From the IMG/VR virus record IMGVR_UViG_2541047814_000001: a stretch of DNA of 50,937 nt; one strand, written 5' to 3'. The position numbers and the translations under genes are program-made. This DNA comes from a virus (Duplodnaviria > Heunggongvirae > Uroviricota > Caudoviricetes). The notes below the pieces were generated by a model, which did not search any database, was not told where the DNA came from, and worked only from the letters and a program-made list of their open reading frames with translations. Of the stretch, positions 1,969 through 46,575 are shown piece after piece (the stretch's first letter is position 1; the number at the start of each line of letters is the position of its first letter).

Positions 1969-2177
1969 CAACCGCAGCACGTTCTTGCTTAAGACGTGCT
2001 GCGGCATAATCCCAATGATTACTCCCTGACAGGGTTCGTAGGCCACTCAATATCAGGTGCAGTTGATGTATCAACACGGTTCAGCAACACCCGATACTTT
2101 TTCCAGGCTTCCAGCAATGAGGTTTCTTCCTCCGTTGCAATTTCCAGATCTGCAGCATCCTGAAGCGGCGCAATATG
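1969..2177. repeat. Direct repeat copy 2 (tfa 3' end and hairpin gcagcacgt-N11-acgtgctgc at 1974-2002)
   Basis: Matches 919-1127; the hairpin lies between the convergent methyltransferase and tfa genes. Confidence 0.8.
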
Positions 2178-2603
2178 CTCACTGGCTACCTGCATCAGGT
2201 TGTTTTTTGTTTCTTCCGCCTCCCGGATCCGGAACAGTTTTTCTGCTTCCGTATCCTTCACCCAGGCTGTGCCGTTCCACTTCTGAAACTCCCCTTCCGG
2301 CGATAACCAGGTAACATTTTCCGGTAACGGACCGAGTTCAGAAATAAATAACTCGTCCCCTGACGCTACGTCATAAACCGTTTTACCCCGATGGTCTTCA
2401 ACGAGATGCCACGATGCCTCATCACTGTTGAAAACAGCCACAAAGCCAGCAGGAATATCTGGTGGTGCAATATCGGTACTGTTTGCTGGCAGACCTGTAT
2501 GAGGCGGAATATATGCGTCACCTTCACCAATAAATTCATTAGTTCCGGCCAGCAGATTATAAATTTTTATGGTCCGTGCTTGTTCACTCATTCTGAATGC
2601 CAT
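2019..2603 (-). CDS. tfa: Tail fibre assembly protein Tfa (194 aa)
   Basis: Immediately downstream of stf with ATGA overlap; conserved Tfa C-terminal region; lambda gene order. Confidence 0.85.
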
Positions 2604-26048: not shown

Positions 26049-26473
26049 CGGGAATCCTGGAGACTAAACTTCCTGAGAAAGAGGTAAACAGGATGACTAA
26101 AAATACTCGTTTTTCCCCCGAAGTCCGTCAACGGGCAGTCCGTATGGTTCTGGAAAGTCAGAGCGAATATGACTCACAATGGGCGACAATTTGTTCCATT
26201 GCTCCAAAGATTGGCTGTACGCCGGAGACTCTGCGTGTCTGGGTTCGCCAGCATGAGCGGGATACCGGGGGCGGTGATGGAGGGCTCACCACCGCTGAAC
26301 GTCAGCGTCTGAAAGAGCTGGAACGTGAAAATCGTGAACTGCGCCGCAGTAACGATATCCTTCGCCAGGCTTCCGCTTATTTTGCGAAGGCGGAGTTCGA
26401 CCGCCTCTGGAAAAAATGATGCCACTGCTGGATAAGCTGCGTGAGCAGTACGGGGTCGGACCGCTATGCAGCG
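26049..26473 (+). mobile_element. Truncated IS3-family element (IS629-like): left IR, orfA and the first ~20 codons of orfB
   Basis: Left end TGAACCGCCCCGGGAATCCTGGAGACTAAACTTCC; orfA complete; orfB frame ([19 protein letters not shown]) breaks after about 20 codons. Confidence 0.7.
26093..26419 (+). CDS. IS3-family transposase OrfA (108 aa, IS629-like)
   Basis: [23 protein letters not shown]... with HTH and leucine zipper typical of IS3 OrfA. Confidence 0.8.
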
Positions 26474-26765: not shown

Positions 26766-27528
26766 CATGGTGTTCACAGAACACGCAGTTACCGGACACA
26801 TCAGTTTTCCATTCGCTCCCCGGCAGTACAGGCTTCCCCTCTGACGGGATAGCCTGAAAAAATAACACAGAAAATTATTTGTTATAATTAATATAACTTA
26901 CTCAAAAAAAAGCGACGAGAAAATCAGCATCAACGAACAATAAGCGCCAATACGTGATAACAAATGGCAGCCATATTTATCTGCAGTATAAGCAATGGAC
27001 AGGATAACCACACCAGAAACCGTCAGCATAAAATCCACTTGAACTTCCCCGGACAAAATCGACTCATCTAAAGATTTACAGCTCTTTTTATTATCAATAT
27101 GTTAAAAGTAAAATAAACAGATGTTCAATAACACGAATACAAAAACGTGCTGAAATTCAATGAATCCATTTCTGTGTCATCAATTAATAGTGATAAACAT
27201 CCGGTTTCTTCCACCATCGCACCGGACAGGCGACTATGAGGGGACAACGCCGCGCTCCGTTAACGCGGTAAACCCCGGTGTGTATCGTTTTTGATTATCC
27301 CCGCACACTCGCGCAGAGGAGTCTCCCTGTCGGGCTGCGGTCTCTGTTAATGAGGGAATACAGCGACGATACGGCGCATCAACAAAACTTATTTCAGGCA
27401 CTGAGTACGGATATATTCCTGCGCCCCTTCCAGTTTATGAGACGACAATAACTCAGTCCGCCTGGCGCCGATTATTCTGGCCGGTTTTGTAACCTGAGTG
27501 TCATTTACATGATCCAACAGGAAATGGC

Positions 27529-29028
27529 GTGACGCTCAATACTTCTCAGGTCAGTTACTATATGACTCAGCGTAAGAAAGGTATAACTCAGCATATCTCG
27601 GCCATGAAGGCTGGTATCTCAGTCCGTTCTGGTCGTCGGATCGAAAAAGGAGAGTGGGCAAAAAACAGTGTTCGGCACTGGCGCACACGCAAAGATCCTC
27701 TGGAAGCTGTGTGGGACAGCATGCTTGTTCCTCTGTTGAAAGAGAGGCCGGCTCTGACACCAACAACTCTGCTGGAGATGCTACAGGATAAATATCCCGG
27801 CCAGTACCCCAACAGCCTTCGAAGAACAATGCAACGGCGGGTCCGCGAATGGAAGCTACAGTATGGTGCAGAGCAGGAGGTCATGTTCCGCCAGCGACAT
27901 CAGCCCGGTCTGCGAGGTCTGTCGGACTTTACTGAACTGAAAGGTGTAGTTGTCACCATCGCCGGTAAGTTGTTGGCGCATAAGTTGTATCACTTCCGTC
28001 TGGAATGGAGCCACTGGAGCTGGATGCGGGTTGTGCTGGGTGGTGAGAGCTTCTCTGCTCTGGCTGAAGGTCTGCAGGAAGCCCTCGGACAACTGGGCGG
28101 AGTGCCGGTAGAACATAAAACGGACAGCCTGAGGGCAGCATGGAAACAACAGGGCGAAGATGGACGCCGCGAGCTGACTGAGCGTTATGCTGCTCTCTGT
28201 CAGCACTACGGAATGCAGGGCGTACACAATAATGCCGGTCGGGGCCACGAAAATGGCTCGGTTGAAAGTGCCCACGGACATCTGAAAAGGCGTATCTGTC
28301 AGGCGCTGATACTGCGGGGCAGTAACGACTTCAGCACCATAGAAGAATATCAGGCCTTCATCACTCAGCAGGTTATGCGGCACAACCGTAACAATCAGGA
28401 TCTGGTCAAGGAAGAACGTCTTCATCTGAAACCGCTGCCGCTTCGTCGCAGTGCTGACTATGATGAGCTGACTGTGAGGGTTAGCCGCAGCAGTACCATC
28501 AATGTGAAGCACGTCGTCTACAGCGTACCTTCCCGGCTTGTAGGTCAACTGTTACGGGTCCGGTTATGGGACGATCGTCTGAGCTGTTACGTTGGCAGCA
28601 GCGAGGTCATGAGCTGCCCACGTGTCAGACCAGAAAAAGGGAAGACGCGGGCCCGTCGTATCGACTTCCGACATGTGATCGACAGTCTGGCAAAAAAGCC
28701 CGGTGCGTTCTGCCATGCAACGCTGAGAAATGACATCCTGCCAGACGATGAATGGCGGAGGCTGTGGCGTCGCTTATGTAATCATCTGGAACCCGACATG
28801 GCAGGCAGGCTGATGGTACATGCTCTGAAACTGGCTGCAGGATACGACGATATCTCAGTCGTGGCAAAAGGTATGGAGCAGATGCTGAATACCCCGGGAA
28901 ACGTGGATCTGCACCGGCTGATGCGCTTCCTGGGTATAAAGGAAAAGGCGTTGCCGGTAGTCAATGTGAAACAGCATAACCTGAGCAGTTATGAGCAACT
29001 ACTGCGTGGCAAGGGAGGTTCGCAGTGA
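27529..29028 (+). CDS. istA: IS21-family transposase IstA (499 aa)
   Basis: N-terminal HTH, DDE-type core, typical IstA length; followed by istB. Confidence 0.85.
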   Translation: MTLNTSQVSYYMTQRKKGITQHISAMKAGISVRSGRRIEKGEWAKNSVRHWRTRKDPLEAVWDSMLVPLLKERPALTPTTLLEMLQDKYPGQYPNSLRRTMQRRVREWKLQYGAEQEVMFRQRHQPGLRGLSDFTELKGVVVTIAGKLLAHKLYHFRLEWSHWSWMRVVLGGESFSALAEGLQEALGQLGGVPVEHKTDSLRAAWKQQGEDGRRELTERYAALCQHYGMQGVHNNAGRGHENGSVESAHGHLKRRICQALILRGSNDFSTIEEYQAFITQQVMRHNRNNQDLVKEERLHLKPLPLRRSADYDELTVRVSRSSTINVKHVVYSVPSRLVGQLLRVRLWDDRLSCYVGSSEVMSCPRVRPEKGKTRARRIDFRHVIDSLAKKPGAFCHATLRNDILPDDEWRRLWRRLCNHLEPDMAGRLMVHALKLAAGYDDISVVAKGMEQMLNTPGNVDLHRLMRFLGIKEKALPVVNVKQHNLSSYEQLLRGKGGSQ

Positions 29029-29780
29029 GCAATATCCATCACCTTGAACGCAGCCTGCGTAAACTACGCCTGACACGAGTTGGAGCTGAATGGCACGCTC
29101 TGGAAAAACGAGCACTGGCAGAAGGCTGGACACCATCGCGCTATCTTCTGACGCTATGCAATGAAGAACTCCTGTGGCGCGAGAGTGAAAAACTGCGTCG
29201 TTATAAAAAGGAGGCCCGGTTGCCAGTTGCCAAAACGCTAAGCGAATACGACTTCAGTCAGGTGCCGGAACTGAATGGAGCTCAGTTCCGGCAACTCTGT
29301 GAAACGACAGACTGGGTTGATGCAGGAGAAAACGTTCTGCTGTTCGGAGCCAGCGGGTTGGGGAAAAGCCATCTGGCGGCAGCGATCGTGGATGGCGTAG
29401 TAGGCCAGGGCTACCGGGCCCGGTTCTACAGCGCAGGAGAGTTGTTGCAGGAACTACGTAAAGCCAGAGCGCAGTTGAAACTGAATGAGCTGCTACTGAA
29501 ACTGGATCGCTACCGGGTGATAGTGGTGGATGATCTTGGCTATGTCAAACGCGACAGCGCCGAAACGGGAGTACTGTTCGAGTTAATAGCGCATCGCTAT
29601 GAACGTGGGAGCCTGGTGATAACCAGTAACCATCCGTTCAGCATGTGGGGCAGCATCTTCGTGGATGAGACTATGGCGGTGGCGGCGGCAGACCGGCTGA
29701 TCCATCACGGATATATGTTCGAACTGAAAGGTGAAAGCTACAGGAAAAAGACAGCGAAGGCAGTAACAAGCGCGACTTGA
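29025..29780 (+). CDS. istB: IS21-family ATP-binding helper IstB (251 aa)
   Basis: Walker A GASGLGKSHLA and Walker B VIVVDDLGY. Confidence 0.85.
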   Translation: MSNIHHLERSLRKLRLTRVGAEWHALEKRALAEGWTPSRYLLTLCNEELLWRESEKLRRYKKEARLPVAKTLSEYDFSQVPELNGAQFRQLCETTDWVDAGENVLLFGASGLGKSHLAAAIVDGVVGQGYRARFYSAGELLQELRKARAQLKLNELLLKLDRYRVIVVDDLGYVKRDSAETGVLFELIAHRYERGSLVITSNHPFSMWGSIFVDETMAVAAADRLIHHGYMFELKGESYRKKTAKAVTSAT

Positions 29781-29828
29781 TGTCGCACTGAAGGGTGCGG
29801 CCAGTATAGTTGGCGCGAGTCGGCAAAA

Positions 29829-30272
29829 CTAGTTGACGTCTAATACCAGTTGCTTCTGCATCGTCATCAGCCGCTCTCTGAGGGTGAAATAATCCCGTGT
29901 AACGGTGTCTGCCAGTTGGGGGCCGGTTGCATTATCCACGCGGGCGGTGCCGGTGGCTTCACGCACGGGACCTGGACAGGTGGCGTTGATACGCAGGCGC
30001 TTACGACCAGCGGCAACGTCAGCGCGAAGAGTTTCATTTTCAGCTTTCGCATCAGCTAACTCCTTCGTGTATTTTGCATCGAGCGCAGCAACATCACGCT
30101 GACGCATCTGCATGTCAGTAATTGCCGCGTTCGCCAGCTTCAGTTCTCTGACATTTTTGTCGCGCTGGGCTTTGTAGGTAATGGCGTTATCACGGTAATG
30201 ATTCAGCCCCAGACTAAGCGCACCACAGGCCACCAGCAGGGCAATGATGACCACGCACAGTACGCGGTTCAT
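29829..30272 (-). CDS. Rz: i-spanin Rz (147 aa)
   Basis: N-terminal TM segment then coiled coil; directly downstream of endolysin; contains embedded Rz1. Confidence 0.8.
29867..30052 (-). CDS. Rz1: o-spanin Rz1 lipoprotein, embedded in Rz in the +1 frame (61 aa)
   Basis: Lipobox ...VVSAC followed by proline-rich [29 protein letters not shown], as in lambda Rz1. Confidence 0.75.
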
Positions 30273-30570
30273 TTCACCACCAGCGTATCTGACCGATGAA
30301 ATAACCGGAGGCCATAATCACAAACACCAGCCAGATAAGAATGAACTTCCAGGTGGATAATTTTTCAGCCATCACTCGAATCTCCCGAATCAGTTTGCTA
30401 AAATCAAACACACTTTCTCCTTTGACTTTTCCGGAGTCAGGAAACACAAAACCCCGCTTGGTGCCAACAAACGGGGTTTTTACTTTTATTCACTTACGTT
30501 TCGCCAGTTCGCAGGATTTCGTGTTATCCGCCCGCGTGGCCATACCTTATTTTTCAGCAAAATATTCTGC

Positions 30571-31104
30571 TTATCTGTCGATTCCCCAGCACGCCAGCGC
30601 GCTCTCCTGGTCACGACGGGATACCTGACCGTAGCAGTTGTTTGAACGAATACGGCAGTCTCTGCCACCGTCCTTAATCCACCAGCGAATCGCCTCACAC
30701 GCTCCCCTGCGATCACCTGCATTAATTCGTTTATAAAACGTCGACGGGAAACACTTACCGGGACCAATGTTGTACGGACAGAATGACGCGATCCCCGCTT
30801 TCTGGGGTTCACTCAATGGCACTCTGATGTTTTTCTCCACCCATGCCAGCGCCTTATCACGCTCAATGGCGTTAACCCGGTCGCATTTTTCCTTCGACAA
30901 CTTCATGCCCGGAACGACAGGTTTGCCATCCACCAGGATGGCACCGCGGCAGATGGTCCAGATACCCGCACCATCACGGTATGCCGTGGTGTGGTTACCT
31001 TCCTTTTCATCCAGAAACTGGTCGAGAATGTCAGGCGCAGGCGCACCAGCGGCAATCAGCGCCAGAACGGCAGCCGACAGGCCGTATCTGATTTTTGCGT
31101 TCAT
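30571..31104 (-). CDS. R: Endolysin R, T4-type lysozyme (GH24) with SAR-like N-terminus (177 aa)
   Basis: E-D-T catalytic region DEKEGNHTTAYRDGAGIWTICRG; hydrophobic Ala/Gly-rich N-terminal segment. Confidence 0.85.
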   Translation of the reverse strand: MNAKIRYGLSAAVLALIAAGAPAPDILDQFLDEKEGNHTTAYRDGAGIWTICRGAILVDGKPVVPGMKLSKEKCDRVNAIERDKALAWVEKNIRVPLSEPQKAGIASFCPYNIGPGKCFPSTFYKRINAGDRRGACEAIRWWIKDGGRDCRIRSNNCYGQVSRRDQESALACWGIDR

Positions 31105-31209
31105 GGATATTTATCAGGATTTATCGGTTTCTGAGCCCTGGATATGTTTATCAGTTCCAGCCTGTTGCCTCAGGCTGCTAACAGGTCAATACAATCATGA
31201 GGATTATTT

Positions 31210-31482
31210 ATGGACAATAACACCATTTCTCTACAGGAGTTGCTCGACAGCATTTCCAGGCTTCGGGAAGACGTGAATACCCTTACCGTCGCCTTCTCAT
31301 ATCTGGCATTCTCAATTCCAAGGGAACAGATGCAATCAACGCTGGCATCAATCCAGTTTGAATCATGCAATCCCAAATGGTCTCAGGAACAACAAGACTC
31401 TTTCAGGCGGCTTGCTGTATTACTGGATGAAAAATATGCTGGTAAAATTACCATTTCGGCGGACTCTTCAGAGAACCCGTAA
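31210..31482 (+). CDS. Hypothetical protein (90 aa) antisense within the lysis cassette
   Basis: GAGGA RBS 6 nt upstream of ATG; upstream TTGCCT...TACAAT promoter-like elements; non-repetitive composition; overlaps the 3' end of the YdfR-like gene. Confidence 0.35.
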   Translation: MDNNTISLQELLDSISRLREDVNTLTVAFSYLAFSIPREQMQSTLASIQFESCNPKWSQEQQDSFRRLAVLLDEKYAGKITISADSSENP

Positions 31483-31792
31483 TTATTCCCGGTAGTTTTC
31501 CTCTGTAGGTTATCAACACATCCTGCGCCTCTAAAATTACGGGGCGCTTTTCCGGCGACTGCTCATCCCCTTCACATAACCCGGCAGCAACATCCAGGAA
31601 GACCTGTCTGATGCTCCTTCTGGCTGCTGCCTCATAAAACTCCAGCGCGGCACCTTCAACACGGTCCAGCGAGATGTCCAGGTCAAAAATTTCACCGTCA
31701 AAGCGTTTTTTGTCCCGTAACGCTAAAGTTACCGTAACTTTATTCTCAAAATTGCGGATCCCTTTCACAATCAGTTCATAGTTTTGAGTCAT
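31448..31792 (-). CDS. YdfR-like (DUF1327-like) protein between holin and endolysin (114 aa)
   Basis: Position matches ydfR between essQ and rrrQ in Qin; family assignment from memory. Confidence 0.5.
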   Translation of the reverse strand: MTQNYELIVKGIRNFENKVTVTLALRDKKRFDGEIFDLDISLDRVEGAALEFYEAAARRSIRQVFLDVAAGLCEGDEQSPEKRPVILEAQDVLITYRGKLPGIITGSLKSPPKW

Positions 31793-31796
31793 TGAA

Positions 31797-32012
31797 TTAC
31801 TCTCCCCGTGCAGCCTTACGACGGTCCTCTCTGATTTTGAAATACAGGTTAGTCAGATATGTCAGCAGCCCAAACAGCAGACTCCCCAGCACGCCTATTG
31901 CCGCCCACTGAGACGGGGAAACCCTGTCCAGCAACTGCAGGAACCAGTAGCCCGTTCCCACCGCTGACGTGGTGTATGACACACCTGTTGTGATTTTTTC
32001 CATCTGGTACAT
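31797..32012 (-). CDS. S: Class II holin / pinholin, S21-like (71 aa, possible dual start MYQM)
   Basis: [67 protein letters not shown] closely resembles phage 21 S. Confidence 0.8.
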
Positions 32013-32044
32013 ACCCCGTCTCCCGTTATCCGGAAGCTGACAAC

Positions 32045-32078
32045 AATAAAAAAAGCCACCAGTTAAGTACTGATGGCT
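32045..32078 (-). terminator. Hairpin plus T7 terminator between nanS-p and the holin (minus strand)
   Basis: Minus strand GCCATCAGTACTTAACTGGTGGC followed by TTTTTTT. Confidence 0.5.
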
Positions 32079-32162
32079 CTGATAACTCATGCAGGCATCT
32101 CAGACGACCCACTGACACTACCGGTGAGTTTAACGATACCTTCCATTTGGCTGGCTCACTTT

Positions 32163-34016
32163 TTATGATGATGCCGGTGCATTTATCTCCAGCACCAGAC
32201 TTTCTATCTCAACGCCATACGCTGCATTTTTGGTAATATCCGTCAGCGTCAGCGCATTCAGCCCCAGTGTCAGACTGTCTTTTATGACCTGGAATGCCGG
32301 GCCAGCCACTCCATTCAGTTTCGGAGTAACCGTGGCACTGCCGGCGGTGAACACCAGCTCCAGCGTCTGCCAGTCGTTACTGTAATTCCCGAACTCGCCC
32401 AACTTTGTGTTTCCTGCTTTCTTGTGATGCATCAGATTCAGTTTGCCGTCTGTGGTCTGGGTGAAGAACGACATCAGGAACGGGTTACCAGTCCCGGTCA
32501 TCGCCACGACGTCAGGTAACGCTACATCGGTATACAGATAAATTCCCAGACCGAACTGGTTGTTGGTCAGTGCGCCTGACAGTCGAAACTTACAGCTCAG
32601 TCTGCCACCCCGTGTCAGCAGGGAGACTGCGTCATCCACCGGGCGCGTCAGGGACCAGGCTTTATTGCTCTGCTTGGTGATCTTAAATACACCATCTGAC
32701 AACTGAATTCCGCCATTCTTAATGCTCCAGCCCTGCGCAGCAGCGTCTCCGGCTGTCGGCAACAGGGAGATTGTGCGTATGGATGCATCTTCAGACGGCC
32801 CCGATGGCGTGTCGCCGCCGGGCGAGGCTTTGATTTCCGGTGCCTTACCACTAATGAAGGCTAAGGTGCGACCGGCTACGTTCAGAATAGCCGTTGCCAT
32901 ACGATCGGGAATAATGCCACGACGCGCCCATGAGCTGAAATGCGTCGGGCGATTTGATGATACCCAGTTTTTGTTCGTTCGGGATGCCGAACCGTAATAA
33001 CCAGACCCGGCAATATCAGGATCTTCTGACGGGTTGTTTGTCGGTGTATTAACTCCGCTACCATCGGTCATAAAGGGAACAAAATAAATCTGCTGGGATT
33101 CTTTACCTTTATATGCACCATATACCACTTCATATTGCGTACCGTGTTCTTGTTTCCACGCGTATGTCGTGTCGCCACAAATCCAGGGGACTGATGCCGG
33201 ACTTCCACCGTGACACTGCGCCGCCAGCCCGGCAAGGTCAGCACGGAACTGCTGTACCATTGCAAGAAATGCTGCTGGCTGCTGGGCGTAACTGGCATTC
33301 GTCATATCGAATTCCCCCTGCATCCAGCATATCGCCAGCAAAACGTTTTTCGGGTTTTTCTGCAATGCTGCCTTCGTGCGGAAAAGCAGATCCTGATATA
33401 ACGGCTTACCCACTCCCCAGCGAGCCGAATCCTGACTGGCTCCCGTGGACTCGCTGAATGTCCCCTCCGTGCCCTGGGTGAATGCCGAACCACCACGACA
33501 GCATGGTACCAGCAGGATCCCCGCATTATTAGGGATATACGGAAGCAGTTTTTTGGCAATATGTAAGCCCTGTCCGACACAGCCGTACTGCCCTTTGCTC
33601 AGGTCAGCCCGGGGATGGTTAATCGTACTCATATCCTGAACATCATGCAGACAATGGTCAGCAGGAATGATGTCGTTAAATACGCATACTTCACCACCGG
33701 GAGTCACTGTGTTACGACGGGCCAGTTGCTTAATGCGCGGATGGGGCGCATCGTATGAATCCGGAAGCGGAAGCCCTTCACCGTAAGCCATGGCATTGGA
33801 TTGCCCGGCCAGTACGATGACGTAGTACCACTCCGGCTCAGTTGCACCACTGACGACCACATCACCTTCTGCTGCAATCGCCTGCATCAGGGTATAAGGG
33901 GTTATGGCCACCGGACTACCAAACGGCTGCCAGCCCTCCTTCAGTTTTTGTGTCAGTCGTTTCGCAAGGTCTGACGGCGATGCCGCCCTGACCACGTCAT
34001 AGTGTTTAAATGCCAT
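32163..34016 (-). CDS. nanS-p: Prophage sialate O-acetylesterase NanS-p-like (DUF1737 N-terminus + SGNH/SASA esterase, 617 aa)
   Basis: SGNH motif LAGQSNAMAYGEG; N-terminal MAFKHYDVVRAASPSDLAKRL domain; position downstream of Q/tRNAs as in Stx phages. Confidence 0.75.
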   Translation of the reverse strand: MAFKHYDVVRAASPSDLAKRLTQKLKEGWQPFGSPVAITPYTLMQAIAAEGDVVVSGATEPEWYYVIVLAGQSNAMAYGEGLPLPDSYDAPHPRIKQLARRNTVTPGGEVCVFNDIIPADHCLHDVQDMSTINHPRADLSKGQYGCVGQGLHIAKKLLPYIPNNAGILLVPCCRGGSAFTQGTEGTFSESTGASQDSARWGVGKPLYQDLLFRTKAALQKNPKNVLLAICWMQGEFDMTNASYAQQPAAFLAMVQQFRADLAGLAAQCHGGSPASVPWICGDTTYAWKQEHGTQYEVVYGAYKGKESQQIYFVPFMTDGSGVNTPTNNPSEDPDIAGSGYYGSASRTNKNWVSSNRPTHFSSWARRGIIPDRMATAILNVAGRTLAFISGKAPEIKASPGGDTPSGPSEDASIRTISLLPTAGDAAAQGWSIKNGGIQLSDGVFKITKQSNKAWSLTRPVDDAVSLLTRGGRLSCKFRLSGALTNNQFGLGIYLYTDVALPDVVAMTGTGNPFLMSFFTQTTDGKLNLMHHKKAGNTKLGEFGNYSNDWQTLELVFTAGSATVTPKLNGVAGPAFQVIKDSLTLGLNALTLTDITKNAAYGVEIESLVLEINAPASS

Positions 34017-34238: not shown

Positions 34239-34241
34239 GTC

Positions 34242-34430
34242 CATAAGAAAGCCCCTCCGGAGAGGGGCTAAAGCCGCGTATCTGTATCATCATGCACATG
34301 GTGCCGGGTGCCTCCCGGTGAGTTCAGCCCGGTGCCACTAAACCCGCGTCATTCTCGTTTTGATAATCAGAGATTATACCGTCACCAGTCGCCCCTCCGC
34401 TCAGGGGGATTCACCATGCGAAATTTTTTT
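34242..34430. repeat. Direct repeat unit 1 (about 180 bp, imperfect) with GCCCCTCCGGAGAGGGGC hairpin
   Basis: Shares blocks with 34735-34915 (aaagcccctccggagaggggct, ggtgccgggtgcctcccggtga, cccctccgc.cagggggattcaccatgc, tgaattgtgag). Confidence 0.6.
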
Positions 34431-34734
34431 AACAAATGCCCAGTCTGACAGGCAACTGTCAACTTACTGAATTGTGAGCAACATAGCATTTAACGGGGAA
34501 CCTGTTTTCTGCAGTAAAAAGGCCCACCGGAGCGGATGGGCCTGGAAGGATAGCGGTCATGTGATGCCGGTTTCCCGGTAACTCAGCACCGGTATCTGAG
34601 TCAACGTTTTCTCTACTGGGTCATTTCCGATACGCCCTGCCTGCTGACAGGCTTTCATCACATCTGAAAATATAGCACCCTGACTGATACTGTAGTACCT
34701 AAGGTTCCAGAAACTGTGATGTATCCGGCACAGA

Positions 34735-34915
34735 AAAGCCCCTCCGGAGAGGGGCTGGAGAGTGGCGCTATGTGCCATTGCATGGTGCCGGGTGCCTCCC
34801 GGTGAATTCAGTACCAGCACCTGAATCCGCGATTATCCCATATACCTACTCGCTGATTGCCCCTCCGCACAGGGGGATTCACCATGCCAGTTTCTTTTAA
34901 CAAACTCCCCGCAAA
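34735..34915. repeat. Direct repeat unit 2 (partner of 34242-34430)
   Basis: Same conserved blocks in the same order and orientation. Confidence 0.6.
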
Positions 34916-34989
34916 CCAGACAACAGTCAACCGCCTGAATTGTGAGACATTTAAAAAAAGCCCGCAAAAGCGAGCCAGGGAAAATAAGT

Positions 34990-35067
34990 GTGGCGCGTTG
35001 TACTGGATTCGAACCAGTGACCGATTGCTTAGAAGGCAATTGCTCTGTCCGGCTGAGCTAACAACGC
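34990..35067 (-). tRNA. tRNA-Arg (anticodon UCU)
   Basis: Minus strand folds as cloverleaf; anticodon loop CTTCTAA; T-loop TTCGAAT; 3' CCA encoded. Confidence 0.8.
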
Positions 35068-35080
35068 AGGATACAGATAA

Positions 35081-35157
35081 TGGACCGCCTTCGGGGACCC
35101 GAACTCCGCGCAACCAGCTTCGAAAGCTGGCGCTCTTTCCTGATGAGCTAATGGCGG
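35081..35157 (-). tRNA. tRNA-like gene, probably Arg (anticodon read as UCG); atypical T-arm
   Basis: D-arm GCTC...GAGC, anticodon stem CCAGC/GCTGG with loop TTTCGAA, CCA end; T-stem has one mismatch and T-loop is TTCGGGT. Confidence 0.45.
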
Positions 35158-35164
35158 TATGTGA

Positions 35165-35240
35165 TGGTGGCCCTTGCTGGATTTGAACCAGCGACCTGGC
35201 GATTATGAGTCGCTCGCTCTCACCACTGAGCTAAAGGGCC
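35165..35240 (-). tRNA. tRNA-Ile2-like (anticodon CAU; ileX/ileZ type)
   Basis: GGCCCTTTAGCTCAGTGGTGAGAGCGAGCGACTCATAATCGC...GGGCCACCA; near-canonical cloverleaf, 76 nt. Confidence 0.85.
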
Positions 35241-39450: not shown

Positions 39451-39606
39451 TTACTCCTCAGGTTCGTAAGCTGTGAAGACAGCGACCTCCGTCTGGCCGG
39501 TTCGGAGTCGTACCTCGCAGAGGTCTTTCCTCGTTACCAGTGCCGTCACTATGACGGTTAAACAGATGACGATCAGGGCGATTAACATCGCCTTTTGCTG
39601 CTTCAT
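39451..39606 (-). CDS. hok: Hok/Gef-family type I toxin (51 aa)
   Basis: MKQQKAMLIALIVICLTVIVTALVTRKDLCEVRLRTGQTEVAVFTAYEPEE is a near-canonical Hok sequence; the in-frame upstream extension is probably leader, not coding. Confidence 0.85.
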   Translation of the reverse strand: MKQQKAMLIALIVICLTVIVTALVTRKDLCEVRLRTGQTEVAVFTAYEPEE

Positions 39607-39843
39607 AGCCTGCTTCCCCTTGCCTTTCGGCACGTAAGAGGCTAACCTACATTTGTGAGACATAGATTGGGCCTCAGATTAATGTTAAGCGTCTTGCAGG
39701 ACGCGAAATGTTAACTGGGGCTTTTCTCTATCTGCCTTTCAGTGTTCATGCCTGAGACAGATAGCCTCAAGCACCCGCAGCCATTCTACTTAACTCACGT
39801 CACCTCGCCAATATGAAATCAATCAGAAAGGTGATCCATAAAA

Positions 39844-44481: not shown

Positions 44482-44958
44482 ATGCTTAGTGGTAAAGACT
44501 TAGGCCGAGCGATAGAGCAGGCCATTAACAAAAAAATTGCATCAGGAGCCGTCAAATCAAAGGCGGAAATCGCACGTCATTTCAAAGTCCAACCACCATC
44601 AATCCATGACTGGATTAAGAAAGGTTCGATAAGTAAAGACAAACTTCCAGAACTATGGCGTTTCTTTTCTGATGTGGTTGGTCCAGAGCATTGGGGGCTT
44701 AACGAATACCCCATACCAACCCCATCCACTTCAGATACAAAAAGTGAACTTTTAGACATAAACAGCCTTTATCAAGCCGCCTCTGATGAAAAAAAAGCAA
44801 TTGTGGCTTTCATCTTATCTGGAAATGCTACGGAGCCTAGTTGGGTTGATTATGACGTTCGCGCCTACATTGCCGCAATGGAAATGAAGGTAGCTAACTA
44901 TCTGAAAAATCAAGAATCAAAACGGAAAAGCCAGAACATCACCAAGACAGGAACTTAA
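44482..44958 (+). CDS. Prophage repressor, RacR-like HTH protein (158 aa; no S24 peptidase domain seen)
   Basis: HTH KAEIARHFKVQPPSIHDWIKKGSI; divergent from cro-like gene; flanked by operator palindromes; same length as Rac RacR. Confidence 0.6.
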   Translation: MLSGKDLGRAIEQAINKKIASGAVKSKAEIARHFKVQPPSIHDWIKKGSISKDKLPELWRFFSDVVGPEHWGLNEYPIPTPSTSDTKSELLDINSLYQAASDEKKAIVAFILSGNATEPSWVDYDVRAYIAAMEMKVANYLKNQESKRKSQNITKTGT

Positions 44959-45095: not shown

Positions 45096-45276
45096 TTTCC
45101 CATACCAACCCATCCCGTCCCACACAATACAGGGCAATACCTCGAGTTACCAGGCAGTGGTCAGGGGTTAAGTAGCCAGCCCGAGGCGTAAGAACATGAC
45201 GGCAGGGTTCAACTTTAATAACTATGCAGCAGGTTTTTGTTCCGCTACCCCGGCGTTAAGGGGAAATGAGGTCAGC

Positions 45277-45429
45277 ATGGATACTATCGAGCTTGGCAAC
45301 AACGAATCTCTGGTATGCGGCGTGTTTCCCAACCAGGACGGCACGTTTACCGCGATGACATATACCAGAAGCAAAACGTTTAAAACTGAAGCTGGCGCGC
45401 GTCGCTGGTTAACCAGAAACACTGACTGA
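45277..45429 (+). CDS. Small protein, YdfA-like by position (50 aa from MDTIEL...)
   Basis: GAGG RBS 5 nt upstream of internal ATG; first gene after the PL-like promoter. Confidence 0.45.
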   Translation: MDTIELGNNESLVCGVFPNQDGTFTAMTYTRSKTFKTEAGARRWLTRNTD

Positions 45430-45440
45430 TGAGGTTGACG

Positions 45441-45761
45441 ATGGAATTTAAAGATTTACCAGTACCATTCCAGGAAATGGCATCGAATGTGGTTCGCTCT
45501 CAACTGGCGACTCTTGACCTGAGTACCGTAGAAAAAGAAACCATCGACAATATATCCGGTAACGTACGCCGAGCCTTTATCGGGCTGTACGAAGAGAAGC
45601 AGCTCTCTGATAACCAGGATTTACATGAAAAATACTTCCTGGATCTAATGGACATCATTGATAAGGGGTTTGGCTTGTTAATGAAAAAGAAAGGGATTCG
45701 AATAGAACCCCTTGAAAATTACTTTGCAACAAAAAGCATTAATTCTTTTGATTCAAAATAA
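45441..45761 (+). CDS. Hypothetical protein (106 aa), YdfB/YdfC-position gene
   Basis: GAGG RBS upstream of ATG (MEFKDL...); hydrophilic; upstream of the dicF region. Confidence 0.4.
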   Translation: MEFKDLPVPFQEMASNVVRSQLATLDLSTVEKETIDNISGNVRRAFIGLYEEKQLSDNQDLHEKYFLDLMDIIDKGFGLLMKKKGIRIEPLENYFATKSINSFDSK

Positions 45762-46014
45762 GAGAATTAATTACAGACTTAACATGCTCTTTCTCATGAT
45801 TGAAGCTCTCATGATTGAAAGTGCCGGGTTGAAGCGAGTCGATATAATCAACAAGACTCTGTCGTACGACTTCATTTTTATCCATAACAGATGCAAGAAA
45901 TGAAATTGCTAAAAGAGTTATATCACTACGCGCCGCAGCATGTTGCAATGCTTTATCAAAATTATTAATCTGGCGTATCAGGGAGTTAATGATTTCATCA
46001 TTTTCAGTCGACAT
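45739..46014 (-). CDS. Hypothetical protein (91 aa) antisense to the early-left transcript
   Basis: Strong RBS AGGAGG-gtgaa-ATG; complex composition; 3' end overlaps the convergent plus-strand gene by 23 bp. Confidence 0.35.
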   Translation of the reverse strand: MSTENDEIINSLIRQINNFDKALQHAAARSDITLLAISFLASVMDKNEVVRQSLVDYIDSLQPGTFNHESFNHEKEHVKSVINSLILNQKN

Positions 46015-46348
46015 TTCACCCTCCTGAGGGTTGGTGATTAAGGAGTTCTCCACGGGTGAGGTGGAGTGCGTGCGCCGGACACGGGTGAGCATCCGGCACT
46101 GACAGTTTACTGAAAGGATATTTCCCTGAAAAGTCAGACCATAACGCGAAAGCGCCCGGCGAGGTAGCTGGTTCATAGATAGCCTGTCGTTAAATTTTCG
46201 TCGACCGTGCGTTTCCGGTTGTGGCAATCCGCGAAATGGCGCGGCGGTAAGTATGGCGGGGTTATTCCTTCCCCGTTGAGGACACCGAGTTGTCAGGTTG
46301 ACCATACGCTTAAGTGACAACCCCGCTGCAACGCCCTCTGTTATCAAT

Positions 46349-46406
46349 TTTCTGGTGACGTTTGGCGGTATCAGTTTTACTCCGTGACTGCTCTGCCGCC
46401 CTTTTT
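46349..46406 (+). ncRNA. dicF: DicF sRNA (53 nt plus T-tract terminator)
   Basis: TTTCTGGTGACGTTTGGCGGTATCAGTTTTACTCCGTGACTGCTCTGCCGCCC followed by TTTTT matches the DicF sequence as I recall it; lies upstream of dicB as in Qin. Confidence 0.65.
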
Positions 46407-46575
46407 AAAGTGAATTTTGTGATGTGGTGAATGCGGCTGAGCGCACGCGGAACAGTTAAAACCAAAAACAGTGTTATGGGTGGATTCTCTGTATCCGGCG
46501 TTAATTGTTAACTGGTTAACGTCACCTGGAGGCACCAGGCACCGCATCACAAAATTCATTGTTGAGGACGCGATA

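What the first reader, a model, noticed from the sequence alone, without database searches (positions are those of the whole stretch)
45739..46347. Unannotated-looking 91-aa minus-strand ORF with a strong Shine-Dalgarno, antisense to the ydfC-dicF precursor region
The dicF-dicB operon is on the plus strand. On the minus strand, an ORF starting at 46014 is preceded by AGGAGG-gtgaa-ATG, encodes a non-repetitive 91-aa protein and overlaps the convergent plus-strand gene by 23 bp. The in-frame upstream extension to 46347 is Arg-rich and GC-rich and is probably non-coding (the DicF precursor region on the other strand). A protein gene antisense to a DicF precursor would be regulatory.
Basis: seen in the sequence. 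Interest (0 to 1): 0.5.

Follow-up and report, generated by a model that had tools for sequence, protein, structure and literature searches.

The report
Annotated small prophage gene beside DicF
The 91-codon frame is a real small prophage gene of unknown function, already annotated as hypothetical; the GC-rich stretch upstream of it is non-coding and contains a strongly conserved, pseudoknotted RNA element that precedes DicF-type small RNAs in many phages and matches no Rfam family.

Summary
The ORF at 45739-46014(-) has AGGAGG-gtgaa-ATG, overlaps the convergent gene by 23 bp, and has an open in-frame extension to 46347.

**It is not unannotated.** RefSeq calls it WP_000102678.1, hypothetical protein.

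**It is a real gene:**
- dN/dS is 0.28, the lowest of six frames (P about 0.003).
- Indels are in-frame.
- Full-length homologues at 25-36% identity occur in E. coli and Salmonella prophages. It is a divergent member of PHROG 18692 (hhalign 94.8%).

**Setting.** The gene is AT-rich cargo (35% GC). It lies head-on inside the early-left (dicBF) operon of a Rac/Qin-like prophage, in a slot where unrelated small ORFs replace it in other prophages. K-12 Qin lacks it. Its function is unknown, and a regulatory antisense role is not shown.

**The upstream extension is non-coding and has two parts:**
- A roughly 100-nt leader that travels with this gene family.
- A 128-nt element on the plus strand (46200-46327). 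It has a boxA-like motif, four helices and a pseudoknot, with covariation support. It lies just upstream of DicF-type terminators in more than 80% of E. coli genomes, and also occurs in phage P1, a 186-like prophage and other Enterobacterales. It has no Rfam match and no match to HK022 or HK639 put RNA.

That RNA element is the more interesting object.

The parts
45739..46014 (-). ORF91: 91-aa protein gene (10.3 kDa, pI 5.4, predicted four helices). RefSeq WP_000102678.1, 'hypothetical protein'. Divergent member of PHROG 18692.
   Evidence: ORF listing. RefSeq annotation. dN/dS 0.28, lowest of six frames. Permutation test P=0.003 and 0.0001. In-frame 15-nt and 27-nt deletions in relatives. Homologues at 25-36% identity. 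hhalign 94.8%, E 5e-8. AlphaFold2 gives four helices at pLDDT 66-68.
46020..46025 (-). Shine-Dalgarno AGGAGG, 5 nt before the ATG. It can pair in a small ACCCU/AGGGU hairpin.
   Evidence: Sequence. MFE fold. The GGAG core is kept in all four family contexts.
45681..45713 (-). Terminator-like hairpin AAGGGGTTCTATTCGAATCCCTT followed by TCTTTTTCAT, 26 nt after the ORF91 stop. It lies inside the 3' coding part of the convergent gene.
   Evidence: Scan. The same hairpin and tail follow the Salmonella 186-like homologue (L008 6299-6321). It is absent behind allele C, so its function is uncertain.
46015..46110 (-). Proximal leader, the putative 5' UTR of ORF91. It has hairpins at 46074-46097 and 46048-46066. 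Its nucleotides are conserved far better than the ORF itself.
   Evidence: Alignment of four family contexts, including Salmonella L154, which has no R1 element. The leader is also kept in K-12, where the ORF is missing.
46104..46132 (-). Candidate weak sigma-70 promoter for ORF91: -35 TTTTCA at 46132-46127, 17-nt spacer, -10 TAAACT at 46109-46104, TSS near 46097. Inference only.
   Evidence: Read from alignment A10. It matches 8 of 12 consensus positions, below the scanner's threshold. It is kept in E. coli alleles and in Salmonella L154 (TAAGCT) but not in L008.
46015..46347 (-). The Arg-rich in-frame 'extension' of the ORF. It is not coding.
   Evidence: A 1-nt indel in relatives. Variable open length. 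It is the same DNA as the K-12 ydfC-dicF spacer, which is unannotated there. The spacer has a match in 4429 of 5426 E. coli genomes.
46200..46327 (+). R1 element, a conserved structured RNA candidate. Components: boxA-like GTGCGTTTCC..GTTGTGG; P1 CCGCG/CGCGG; P2 CGGU/ACCG; variable P3 hairpin; P4 AGUUGUCA/UGACAACC; pseudoknot GUAUGG/CCAUAC. It ends 22 nt before DicF.
   Evidence: Covariance model R1 hits once in the window at 148.7 bits. Covariation: 10 pairs with double changes against 2.7+-1.1 in shuffles, 0 of 500 shuffles as high. Fully compensated P4 in Izhakiella. No Rfam match at E<=10.
46350..46401 (+). DicF sRNA, included as context.
   Evidence: Rfam RF00039, 76.7 bits.
45429..45761 (+). 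Convergent early-operon gene (110 aa, phrog_6937). Its last 23 nt overlap ORF91. Its C-terminal 35 aa resemble the tail of the Salmonella partner gene.
   Evidence: PHROG E 7e-67. BLASTP 46% identity over 35 aa to L008's 214-aa partner protein. Partner alignment.

Best explanation
The interval holds two unrelated things.

**(1) ORF91 is a genuine small protein gene.** It is AT-rich accessory ('moron'-type) cargo of a Rac/Qin-like prophage, inserted head-on into the early-left (dicBF-type) operon.
- Shown: it is under purifying selection as a protein. It belongs to a family (PHROG 18692) that always sits on the strand opposite the early operon, with its 3' end overlapping the preceding early gene. 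It has a strong ribosome-binding site.
- Inferred: it is transcribed on its own from a weak promoter in the conserved roughly 100-nt leader (TSS near 46097). In this allele it ends at the hairpin at 45713-45691.
- Inferred: the acidic four-helix product acts as a protein, most likely by binding another protein, while the early operon is repressed in the lysogen.
- Inferred: because the unit is convergent with the early gene and overlaps its 3' end, its transcription should also oppose that gene, as lambda OOP does for cII.

**(2) The 'extension' upstream is non-coding.** Its distal 128 nt (46200-46327) are a conserved pseudoknotted RNA element. It most likely acts in the plus-strand (DicF-sense) transcript, and it belongs with DicF rather than with ORF91.
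For: **Coding**
- Against the 87%-identical TUM1880 allele, dN/dS is 0.28, the lowest of six frames.
- 19 of 42 substitutions are synonymous against 11.2+-2.5 expected (P=0.003).
- There are 18 amino-acid changes against 27.7+-2.5 expected (P=1e-4).
- 66% of random substitution sets would create a stop codon.
- Deletions of 15 and 27 nt are in-frame.

**Family**
- Collinear homologues of 91-93 aa occur in E. coli and Salmonella at 25-36% identity, with invariant L12, D20, R29, D31, L34, S38, K46, R51 and H77.
- PHROG 18692 matches: 8e-63, 1e-41 and 8e-21 for relatives, and 0.022 for ORF91 itself.
- hhalign gives 94.8% probability, E 5e-8, over 83 columns.

**Architecture**
- The gene has the opposite orientation and a 23- or 41-bp 3' overlap in the window, L157, L154-156 and L008.

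**Cargo character**
- GC is 0.35 against 0.52 for the window.
- A roughly 590-bp module is inserted relative to K-12.
- The ORF is present in 198 of 5426 E. coli genomes.
- The same slot, behind the same SD, holds phrog_7249 or phrog_10348 ORFs, or nothing.

**Leader and terminator:**

**Extension non-coding and R1 element:**
Against: - There is no expression data of any kind for this gene. K-12, where most transcriptomics exists, lacks it.
- The promoter is only an 8-of-12 consensus match read from an alignment, and it is not kept in the Salmonella 186-like context.
- The terminator-like hairpin is absent behind allele C. It also lies in a protein-coding tail that exists without ORF91 (L041). 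It may therefore be conserved for the other strand.
- No Pfam, NCBIfam, PADLOC or PDB relative gives any functional hint.
- The structure models are only medium confidence and match generic helical repeats.
- Only one diverged allele pair was available for dN/dS.
- The strand on which R1 acts is not settled by wobble pairs: 32 G-U against 30 A-C.
Confidence: 0.6

Rival explanations
1. First reader's reading. The ORF91 transcription unit exists mainly to make an antisense RNA against the DicF precursor or early operon, which would keep the toxic dicF/dicB silent. The protein would be secondary.
For: - The unit is antisense to the operon transcript and convergent with the early gene.
- Its leader is conserved better than its coding part.
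- A 9-of-12 promoter-like site, TTAACA-16-GAGAAT, lies at 46511-46484(-). It would give an RNA fully antisense to DicF, and it recurs in L157.
- There is a lambda precedent in OOP-cII (established knowledge).
Against: - Protein-level purifying selection and a conserved residue pattern persist across alleles whose coding DNA no longer shows recognisable similarity.
- About 78% of E. coli genomes have a match to the spacer that precedes dicF but not to this gene.
- Unrelated ORFs can occupy the slot.
- The number of promoter-like matches in the region is what shuffles give.
Confidence: 0.12
2. ORF91 and the C-terminal tail of the convergent early gene form a two-part cassette. They could be a protein pair, such as an inhibitor and its target, or a toxin-antitoxin-like pair. 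The cassette moves as a unit.
For: - The 3' overlap is kept in all contexts.
- The tail is 46% identical between E. coli and the Salmonella 186-like partner, although the N-terminal domains differ.
- In L154 a type-2 tail exists as a free-standing 71-aa protein. In L157 it is fused to the phrog_1363 N-domain.
Against: - Tail type does not track ORF subfamily. P0019 is closer to allele C (45% against 34%) but is paired with a type-1 tail.
- The phrog_6937 protein, with its tail, occurs without ORF91 in L041 and L032.
- There are no toxin or antitoxin hits in Pfam or PADLOC.
Confidence: 0.15
3. The ORF is a chance open frame that annotation pipelines propagate, and it is not translated.
For: - It is a small orphan with no Pfam or NCBIfam family.
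- Only 15 close relatives were found in 5.8 billion proteins.
- There is no match in deposited phage genomes.
Against: - 8 of 5000 shuffles stay open.
- dN/dS and permutation tests favour coding.
- Remote full-length homologues in another genus occupy the same genomic position.
- It has a strong SD.
Confidence: 0.04

Closest known systems
PHROG 18692 (phage protein family of unknown function, about 92 aa)
   Same: Same length and collinear alignment. The RxD and EKxH motifs are shared. The position and orientation in prophage early-left regions are the same. Profile-profile probability is 94.8%.
   Different: ORF91 and its allele B form a divergent branch at 25-34% identity. The family HMM scores ORF91 only at E 0.022. 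The family has no known function, so membership explains nothing about mechanism.
Lambda OOP RNA / cII (a convergent transcript overlapping the 3' end of an early regulatory gene)
   Same: A convergent unit whose 3' end overlaps the 3' end of an early-operon gene. In the Salmonella 186-like prophage the overlapped gene hits a 'CII-like regulator' PHROG.
   Different: OOP is a 77-nt non-coding RNA, whereas this is a translated 91-aa gene. No RNase III or antisense effect has been tested. The resemblance is recalled from established knowledge and is not a test.
Phage 'morons' and accessory-gene hotspots in lambdoid and P2-like prophages
   Same: AT-rich DNA, its own translation signals, a patchy distribution, and a slot where unrelated ORFs alternate.
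   Different: No promoter or terminator has been shown by experiment. No defence or anti-defence family matches.
HK022 put and HK639 putL-like antiterminator RNAs (comparison for the R1 element)
   Same: A cis RNA of about 70-130 nt in the leader of early operons, upstream of intrinsic terminators. In P1 the R1 match starts about 20 nt after the -10 box of the C1-controlled Pban promoter. HK639 putL-like is 126 nt long and lies about 75 nt after pL.
   Different: The R1 model finds nothing at E<=1 in the HK022 immunity region and nothing at the HK639 put site. R1 has a pseudoknot and a boxA-like motif, whereas put RNA has two stem-loops (PMC9378689). Antitermination is untested.
P1 'dicF-like region' (annotated misc_feature in NC_005856)
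   Same: It overlaps the 3' part of the P1 R1 match (R1 at L133 1476-1597; feature at 1553-1654), so the sequence similarity to the dicF region was noticed by the P1 annotators.
   Different: It is annotated only as a similarity. In what I could read there is no structure, function or family. Reviews call the K-12 counterpart a 'long untranslated region' or the 'ydfC 3' UTR' (PMC5069750, PMC9438474).

Membership tests
PHROG 18692 | Significant match to the family profile | tested here: inconclusive
   ORF91 scores E 0.022 (16 bits) over 9-88 of 92. Relatives P0019, P0037 and allele C score 8e-21, 1e-41 and 8e-63.
PHROG 18692 | Homology to bona fide members over the full length | tested here: met
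   BLASTP to P0019: 36% identity over 90 aa, E 7e-11. hmmsearch E 9e-5 in 1.84 billion proteins. hhalign 94.8%, E 5e-8, 83 columns.
PHROG 18692 | Same genomic setting: opposite strand in the prophage early-left operon, with a 3' overlap on the preceding gene | tested here: met
   Seen in the window, L157-159, L154-156 and L008.
YmgB/AriR-TomB small helical regulators (lead from memory) | Match to the Pfam family | tested here: not met
   No Pfam hit at E<=1 for ORF91. None of the 11 family members hits such a family.
Known anti-phage defence or toxin-antitoxin components | Match to a PADLOC, Pfam or NCBIfam model | tested here: not met
   Only BrxA at E 0.014 (12.7 bits), against a fragment of a 259-position profile. 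Nothing in NCBIfam.
DicF sRNA (RF00039) | Score above the Rfam gathering threshold | tested here: met
   46350-46401(+) scores 76.7 bits against a threshold of 48. It lies outside ORF91 and outside R1.
HK022/HK639 put antiterminator RNA (for R1) | Sequence or structure similarity to put RNAs | tested here: not met
   No R1 hit at E<=1 in HK022 27500-32500. No hit on the annotated HK639 putL-like RNA.
HK022/HK639 put antiterminator RNA (for R1) | Location in the transcribed leader of an early operon, upstream of terminators and co-directional with the operon | tested here: met
   P1 Pban. Phage Ayreon, after cI and an annotated promoter. A DicA-type repressor context. Qin. A DicF-type or other intrinsic terminator lies 25-50 nt downstream in most contexts.
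HK022/HK639 put antiterminator RNA (for R1) | Factor-independent antitermination that depends on the RNA polymerase beta' zinc-binding domain | not testable with these tools
   This needs reporter or in vitro transcription assays.
Lambda-type nut site (for R1) | boxA followed by a boxB hairpin, with an N-type protein encoded downstream | tested here: inconclusive
   A boxA-like GTGCKCTYY motif (TGCTCTTTCC in Trabulsiella) lies 17-20 nt before the P1 hairpin. The P1 phage copies lack the motif. No N-like gene was seen among the annotated neighbours, but none was specifically searched for.
Any Rfam family (for R1 and the leader) | cmscan match | tested here: not met
   For 45650-46450 on both strands, only DicF has a credible match. 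All other hits are at E>=3 to eukaryotic families.

The most novel reading that the evidence does not exclude
The 128-nt element at 46200-46327(+) is an undescribed class of cis-acting phage leader RNA. It would be a pseudoknotted, boxA-associated processive antiterminator, or else a terminator-controlling or processing module. Its role would be to decide whether RNA polymerase stops at the DicF-type terminator (making the sRNA) or reads on into dicB and the rest of the early operon. It is shared by lambdoid, P1-like and 186-like phages across Enterobacterales. ORF91-type cargo genes are inserted head-on next to it, so their transcription could collide with it.
Probability: 0.3. Interest if true: 0.75.

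Novelty: new member of a known kind. Interest (0 to 1): 0.4.

Why it matters
ORF91 matters little on its own. It adds a divergent branch to a phage protein family of unknown function, and it shows that the dicBF operon of some E. coli lineages carries a head-on accessory gene that K-12 has lost.

The non-coding part could matter more. DicF is a textbook sRNA, and the DNA upstream of it is described only as a long untranslated region. Here that DNA contains an element that is conserved more widely than DicF itself. The element has covariation-supported helices and a pseudoknot. It sits directly before the terminator that forms DicF's 3' end, and it also occurs at the start of the P1 ban operon.

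If the element controls termination or processing, it would explain how a single transcript yields either DicF or the downstream toxic DicB. It would also add a new RNA class to phage early-gene control.

Tried and rejected
- **Small helical regulator families.** My first guess from the sequence was YmgB/AriR or TomB. Pfam shows no hit for ORF91 or for any of 11 family members.
- **Other protein libraries.** NCBIfam, PADLOC and a PDB sequence profile gave nothing credible.
- **Deposited phage genomes.** tblastn found no match to ORF91.
- **Thermodynamic folding.** Neither the spacer nor the ORF91 mRNA folds better than shuffles (z -0.9).
- **'R1 is the leader of ORF91'.** Rejected. Salmonella L154-156 carry the ORF and the proximal leader but no R1. 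Most R1 copies have no such ORF nearby.
- **'The terminator hairpin defines the cassette'.** Weakened. It is absent behind allele C, and the tail exists without ORF91.
- **Strand of R1 from G-U against A-C counts.** Inconclusive, at 32 against 30.
- **R1 as an HK022 or HK639 put homologue.** No model hit.
- **My own strict terminator scan downstream of R1.** It missed the long-loop DicF-type stems, so that statement rests on reading the flanks by eye.
- **Literature.** Searches on dicF with antisense, antitermination, dicF-like, and the WP accession found no description of either feature. King et al. 2011 and the P1 genome paper were not available.

Full report
**1. What is at the coordinates**

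The window region is the early-left arm of a Rac/Qin-like lambdoid prophage. In order it contains:
- a racR-type repressor gene, 44482-44958(+);
- a DUF1391/ydfA homologue, 45196-45429(+);
- a 110-aa ORF, 45429-45761(+), phrog_6937 at E 7e-67;
- the minus-strand ORF under study, 45739-46014;
- a GC-rich spacer of about 335 bp;
- DicF, 46350-46401(+), Rfam 76.7 bits;
- dicB, a DUF1482/ydfD gene and an 823-aa exonuclease.

- The sequence reads AGGAGG-GTGAA-ATG.
- The ORF encodes 91 aa and overlaps the convergent gene by 23 bp.
- An in-frame open extension runs up to a TTG at 46347.

Two points in the title are wrong. RefSeq annotates the ORF as WP_000102678.1, 'hypothetical protein'. This prophage also has no ydfB or ydfC.

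**2. Is ORF91 a gene?**

Its DNA occurs in 198 of 5426 complete E. coli genomes, mostly at 99% identity or more. A second allele at about 87% identity and a variant with a 15-nt deletion also exist.

Against the 87% allele:
- dN/dS is 0.28 in the ORF91 frame, the lowest of the six frames.
- 19 of 42 substitutions are synonymous, against 11.2+-2.5 expected when the same substitutions are placed at random (P=0.003).
- Only 18 residues differ, against 27.7+-2.5 expected (P=1e-4).
- Two thirds of random placements would create a stop codon.
- The 15-nt and 27-nt deletions keep the frame.
- Only 8 of 5000 composition-matched shuffles stay open over 91 codons.

The exhaustive HMMER search found a 92-aa Salmonella protein, P0019 (E 9e-5). 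It is 36% identical from end to end. Further searches found the E. coli 'allele C' and the Salmonella P0033/P0037 group.

All of these proteins are 91-93 aa and collinear. They share L12, D20, R29, D31, L34, S38, K46, R51 and H77. These relatives are core PHROG 18692 (8e-63 to 8e-21). ORF91 itself scores only 0.022, but the profile-profile comparison gives 94.8%, E 5e-8.

I conclude that ORF91 is a real gene and a divergent member of that family. Its function is unknown:
- There is no Pfam, NCBIfam, PADLOC or PDB relative.
- AlphaFold2 gives a four-helix model at only pLDDT 66-68.
- The fold matches are generic.

**3. Setting and architecture**

Compared with K-12 Qin, a module of about 590 bp is present here. 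It consists of the 110-aa ORF plus ORF91. Its right end lies only about 14 nt upstream of the ORF91 ATG. K-12 keeps the whole spacer but lacks the SD and the gene.

The module is AT-rich, at 0.35-0.39 GC against 0.52 for the window.

A scan of viral contigs with a spacer motif gave 120 loci. Behind the same SD, at the same offset, these loci carry one of the following:
- ORF91;
- allele B;
- allele C;
- an unrelated 73-aa ORF (phrog_7249);
- nothing.

A 77-aa ORF (phrog_10348) starts about 30 nt further upstream in one locus.

The family gene lies on the strand opposite the early operon, and its 3' end overlaps the preceding early gene by 23 or 41 bp. This holds in every context examined:
- the window;
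- E. coli L157-159;
- Salmonella Rac-like L154-156;
- Salmonella 186-like L008.

The overlapped tails come in two types. They can be fused to different N-terminal domains or stand alone.

A terminator-like hairpin with a U-run follows ORF91 at 45713-45681. It recurs almost unchanged behind the Salmonella 186-like homologue. It is missing behind allele C.

**4. The upstream 'extension' is not coding**

A 1-nt indel shifts the frame in close relatives, and the open length varies. The same DNA is the K-12 ydfC-dicF spacer, which has a match in 4429 of 5426 E. coli genomes. It divides into two parts.

*Proximal part (about 46015-46110).* This part is conserved in all four ORF91-family contexts. 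For example, TGCCGGATGCTYACCYGTGTCCGGCGCAC is nearly invariant while the proteins are only 25-36% identical. One of those contexts, Salmonella L154, has no R1 element. I read this part as the 5' UTR of the family. A candidate weak promoter lies just upstream: -35 at 46132-46127 and -10 at 46109-46104. That promoter is inference only. It matches 8 of 12 consensus positions and is not kept in L008.

*Distal part (46200-46327).* I call this the R1 element.

**5. The R1 element**

Alignment of copies shows the following components:
- a boxA-like motif, GTGCKCTYY...GTTGTGG;
- hairpin P1, CCGCG/CGCGG;
- P2, CGGU/ACCG;
- a P3 hairpin that varies in sequence and length but is always present (CGGGG/CCCCG, CUGGGG/CUCCAG, CGAGG/CCUCG, CAGGG/CCCUG, CCCGGG/CCCGGG and others);
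- P4, RGUUGUCA/UGACAACC;
- a pseudoknot, GUAUGG/CCAUAC.

The copies come from:
- lambdoid prophages;
- P1 and P7-like phage-plasmids;
- a Salmonella 186-like prophage;
- Citrobacter, Serratia symbiotica, Trabulsiella, Erwinia tracheiphila and Izhakiella.

On 57 distinct sequences, 95.4% of cells are paired. Ten pairs show double changes, against 2.7+-1.1 in shuffles (0 of 500 as high) and 1-4 in slid controls. Izhakiella carries a fully compensated P4, GGGUAACCA/UGGUUACCC, and the P1 phage copy carries a compensated pseudoknot pair.

Caveats on that result:
- The alignment was fitted to the model.
- Many sequences are close relatives.
- G-U against A-C counts (32 against 30) do not decide the strand.

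I infer the plus strand from context. In every setting the element is co-directional with the early operon:
- Qin: between the ydf genes and dicF.
- CPS-53-like prophage, phage Ayreon and a DicA-type phage: after the repressor gene.
- P1: the match starts about 20 nt after the -10 box of the C1-controlled Pban promoter.
- 186-like prophage: in the cox-side operon.

In most contexts a DicF or DicF-like GGCGG...CCGCC stem with a U-run follows R1 within 25-50 nt. In P1 a different intrinsic terminator follows (read by eye).

Comparison with known RNAs:
- Rfam 15 has no match.
- The R1 model does not hit the HK022 immunity region or the annotated HK639 putL-like RNA.
- P1's record marks an overlapping stretch only as a 'dicF-like region'.
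- Papers I could read call the K-12 stretch a long untranslated region or the ydfC 3' UTR (PMC5069750, PMC9438474).

Position and architecture suggest a leader RNA that governs what happens at the DicF terminator, whether by antitermination, conditional termination or processing. This is a hypothesis. It works like put in position only, and it fails the membership test for put.

**6. Verdict**

It is already annotated, belongs to a known but uncharacterised phage family, and looks like swappable accessory cargo. The proposed regulatory antisense role is possible but unsupported.

The more notable result came from following the 'non-coding extension'. It contains a widely conserved, structured RNA element tied to DicF-type sRNAs. 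I could not find that element described as such.

Scores: interest 0.4 overall, with ORF91 alone at about 0.2. Novelty: new member of a known kind for the ORF. The R1 element may be a new RNA class. That reading has a probability of about 0.3 and an interest of 0.75 if true.

Noticed in passing
window 46200-46327 (+); also L004 2234-2361 (K-12), L133 1476-1597 (P1), L008 5748-5888 (-): A conserved 128-nt pseudoknotted RNA candidate (R1) with a boxA-like motif lies directly upstream of DicF-type terminators. It has no Rfam family and no similarity to HK022 or HK639 put by covariance model.
   Followed up: yes
L108, L112, L010, L041, L032 (viral contigs), at the position equivalent to window 45739-46028: The slot behind the conserved leader and SD is hypervariable. 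It holds PHROG 18692 alleles, or a 73-aa phrog_7249 ORF, or nothing. In the last case the phrog_6937 gene abuts the leader. A 77-aa phrog_10348 ORF starts about 30 nt further upstream in L010.
   Followed up: partly
L131 2481-2700, L147/L148, L152, L153, L142, L154 4720-4790: Downstream of R1, or in L154 without R1, lie DicF-like RNAs (UUUGGCGGUACC...GGUACCGCC+U-run). None was reported at Rfam's DicF gathering threshold in the loci scanned, so DicF appears to be one branch of a wider, more variable sRNA family. The Erwinia and Izhakiella versions contain an SD and an ATG inside the stem.
   Followed up: no
L157 4204-4392 (-); L137 40-228; L148 1630-1815; L008 4338-4425: IsrK and/or C4 antisense-RNA modules (P1 immI-like, upstream of an Ash/pRha-type gene in L157) lie elsewhere in several of the prophage loci that carry R1.
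   Followed up: no
window 46484-46511 (-); L157 4517-4544 (+): A promoter-like site, TTAACA-16-GAGAAT (9 of 12), lies between dicB and dicF and points antisense through DicF. It is conserved in a second prophage. The number of such matches in the region is what chance gives.
   Followed up: partly
L145, L146, L149 (genome contigs): MAGs labelled Bacillota, Veillonella parvula and Collinsella carry E. coli or P1-type R1+DicF sequence at near identity. These are probably binning contaminants.
   Followed up: no
window 34239-35240 (-), 39601-39776 (-), 26374-26473 (+), 2062-2260 (-): Other Rfam hits in the window: two STnc100 copies next to three tRNA genes, a sok antitoxin (hok/sok-type locus), an ALIL frameshift pseudoknot (IS3-family element) and IS009.
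   Followed up: no
L004 2043-2060 (K-12 Qin) against window 46015-46030: K-12 Qin retains the whole ORF91 leader up to, but not including, the SD. It looks like a deletion derivative of a prophage that once carried cargo at this slot. The minus-strand leader there would run into antisense ydfC.
   Followed up: partly
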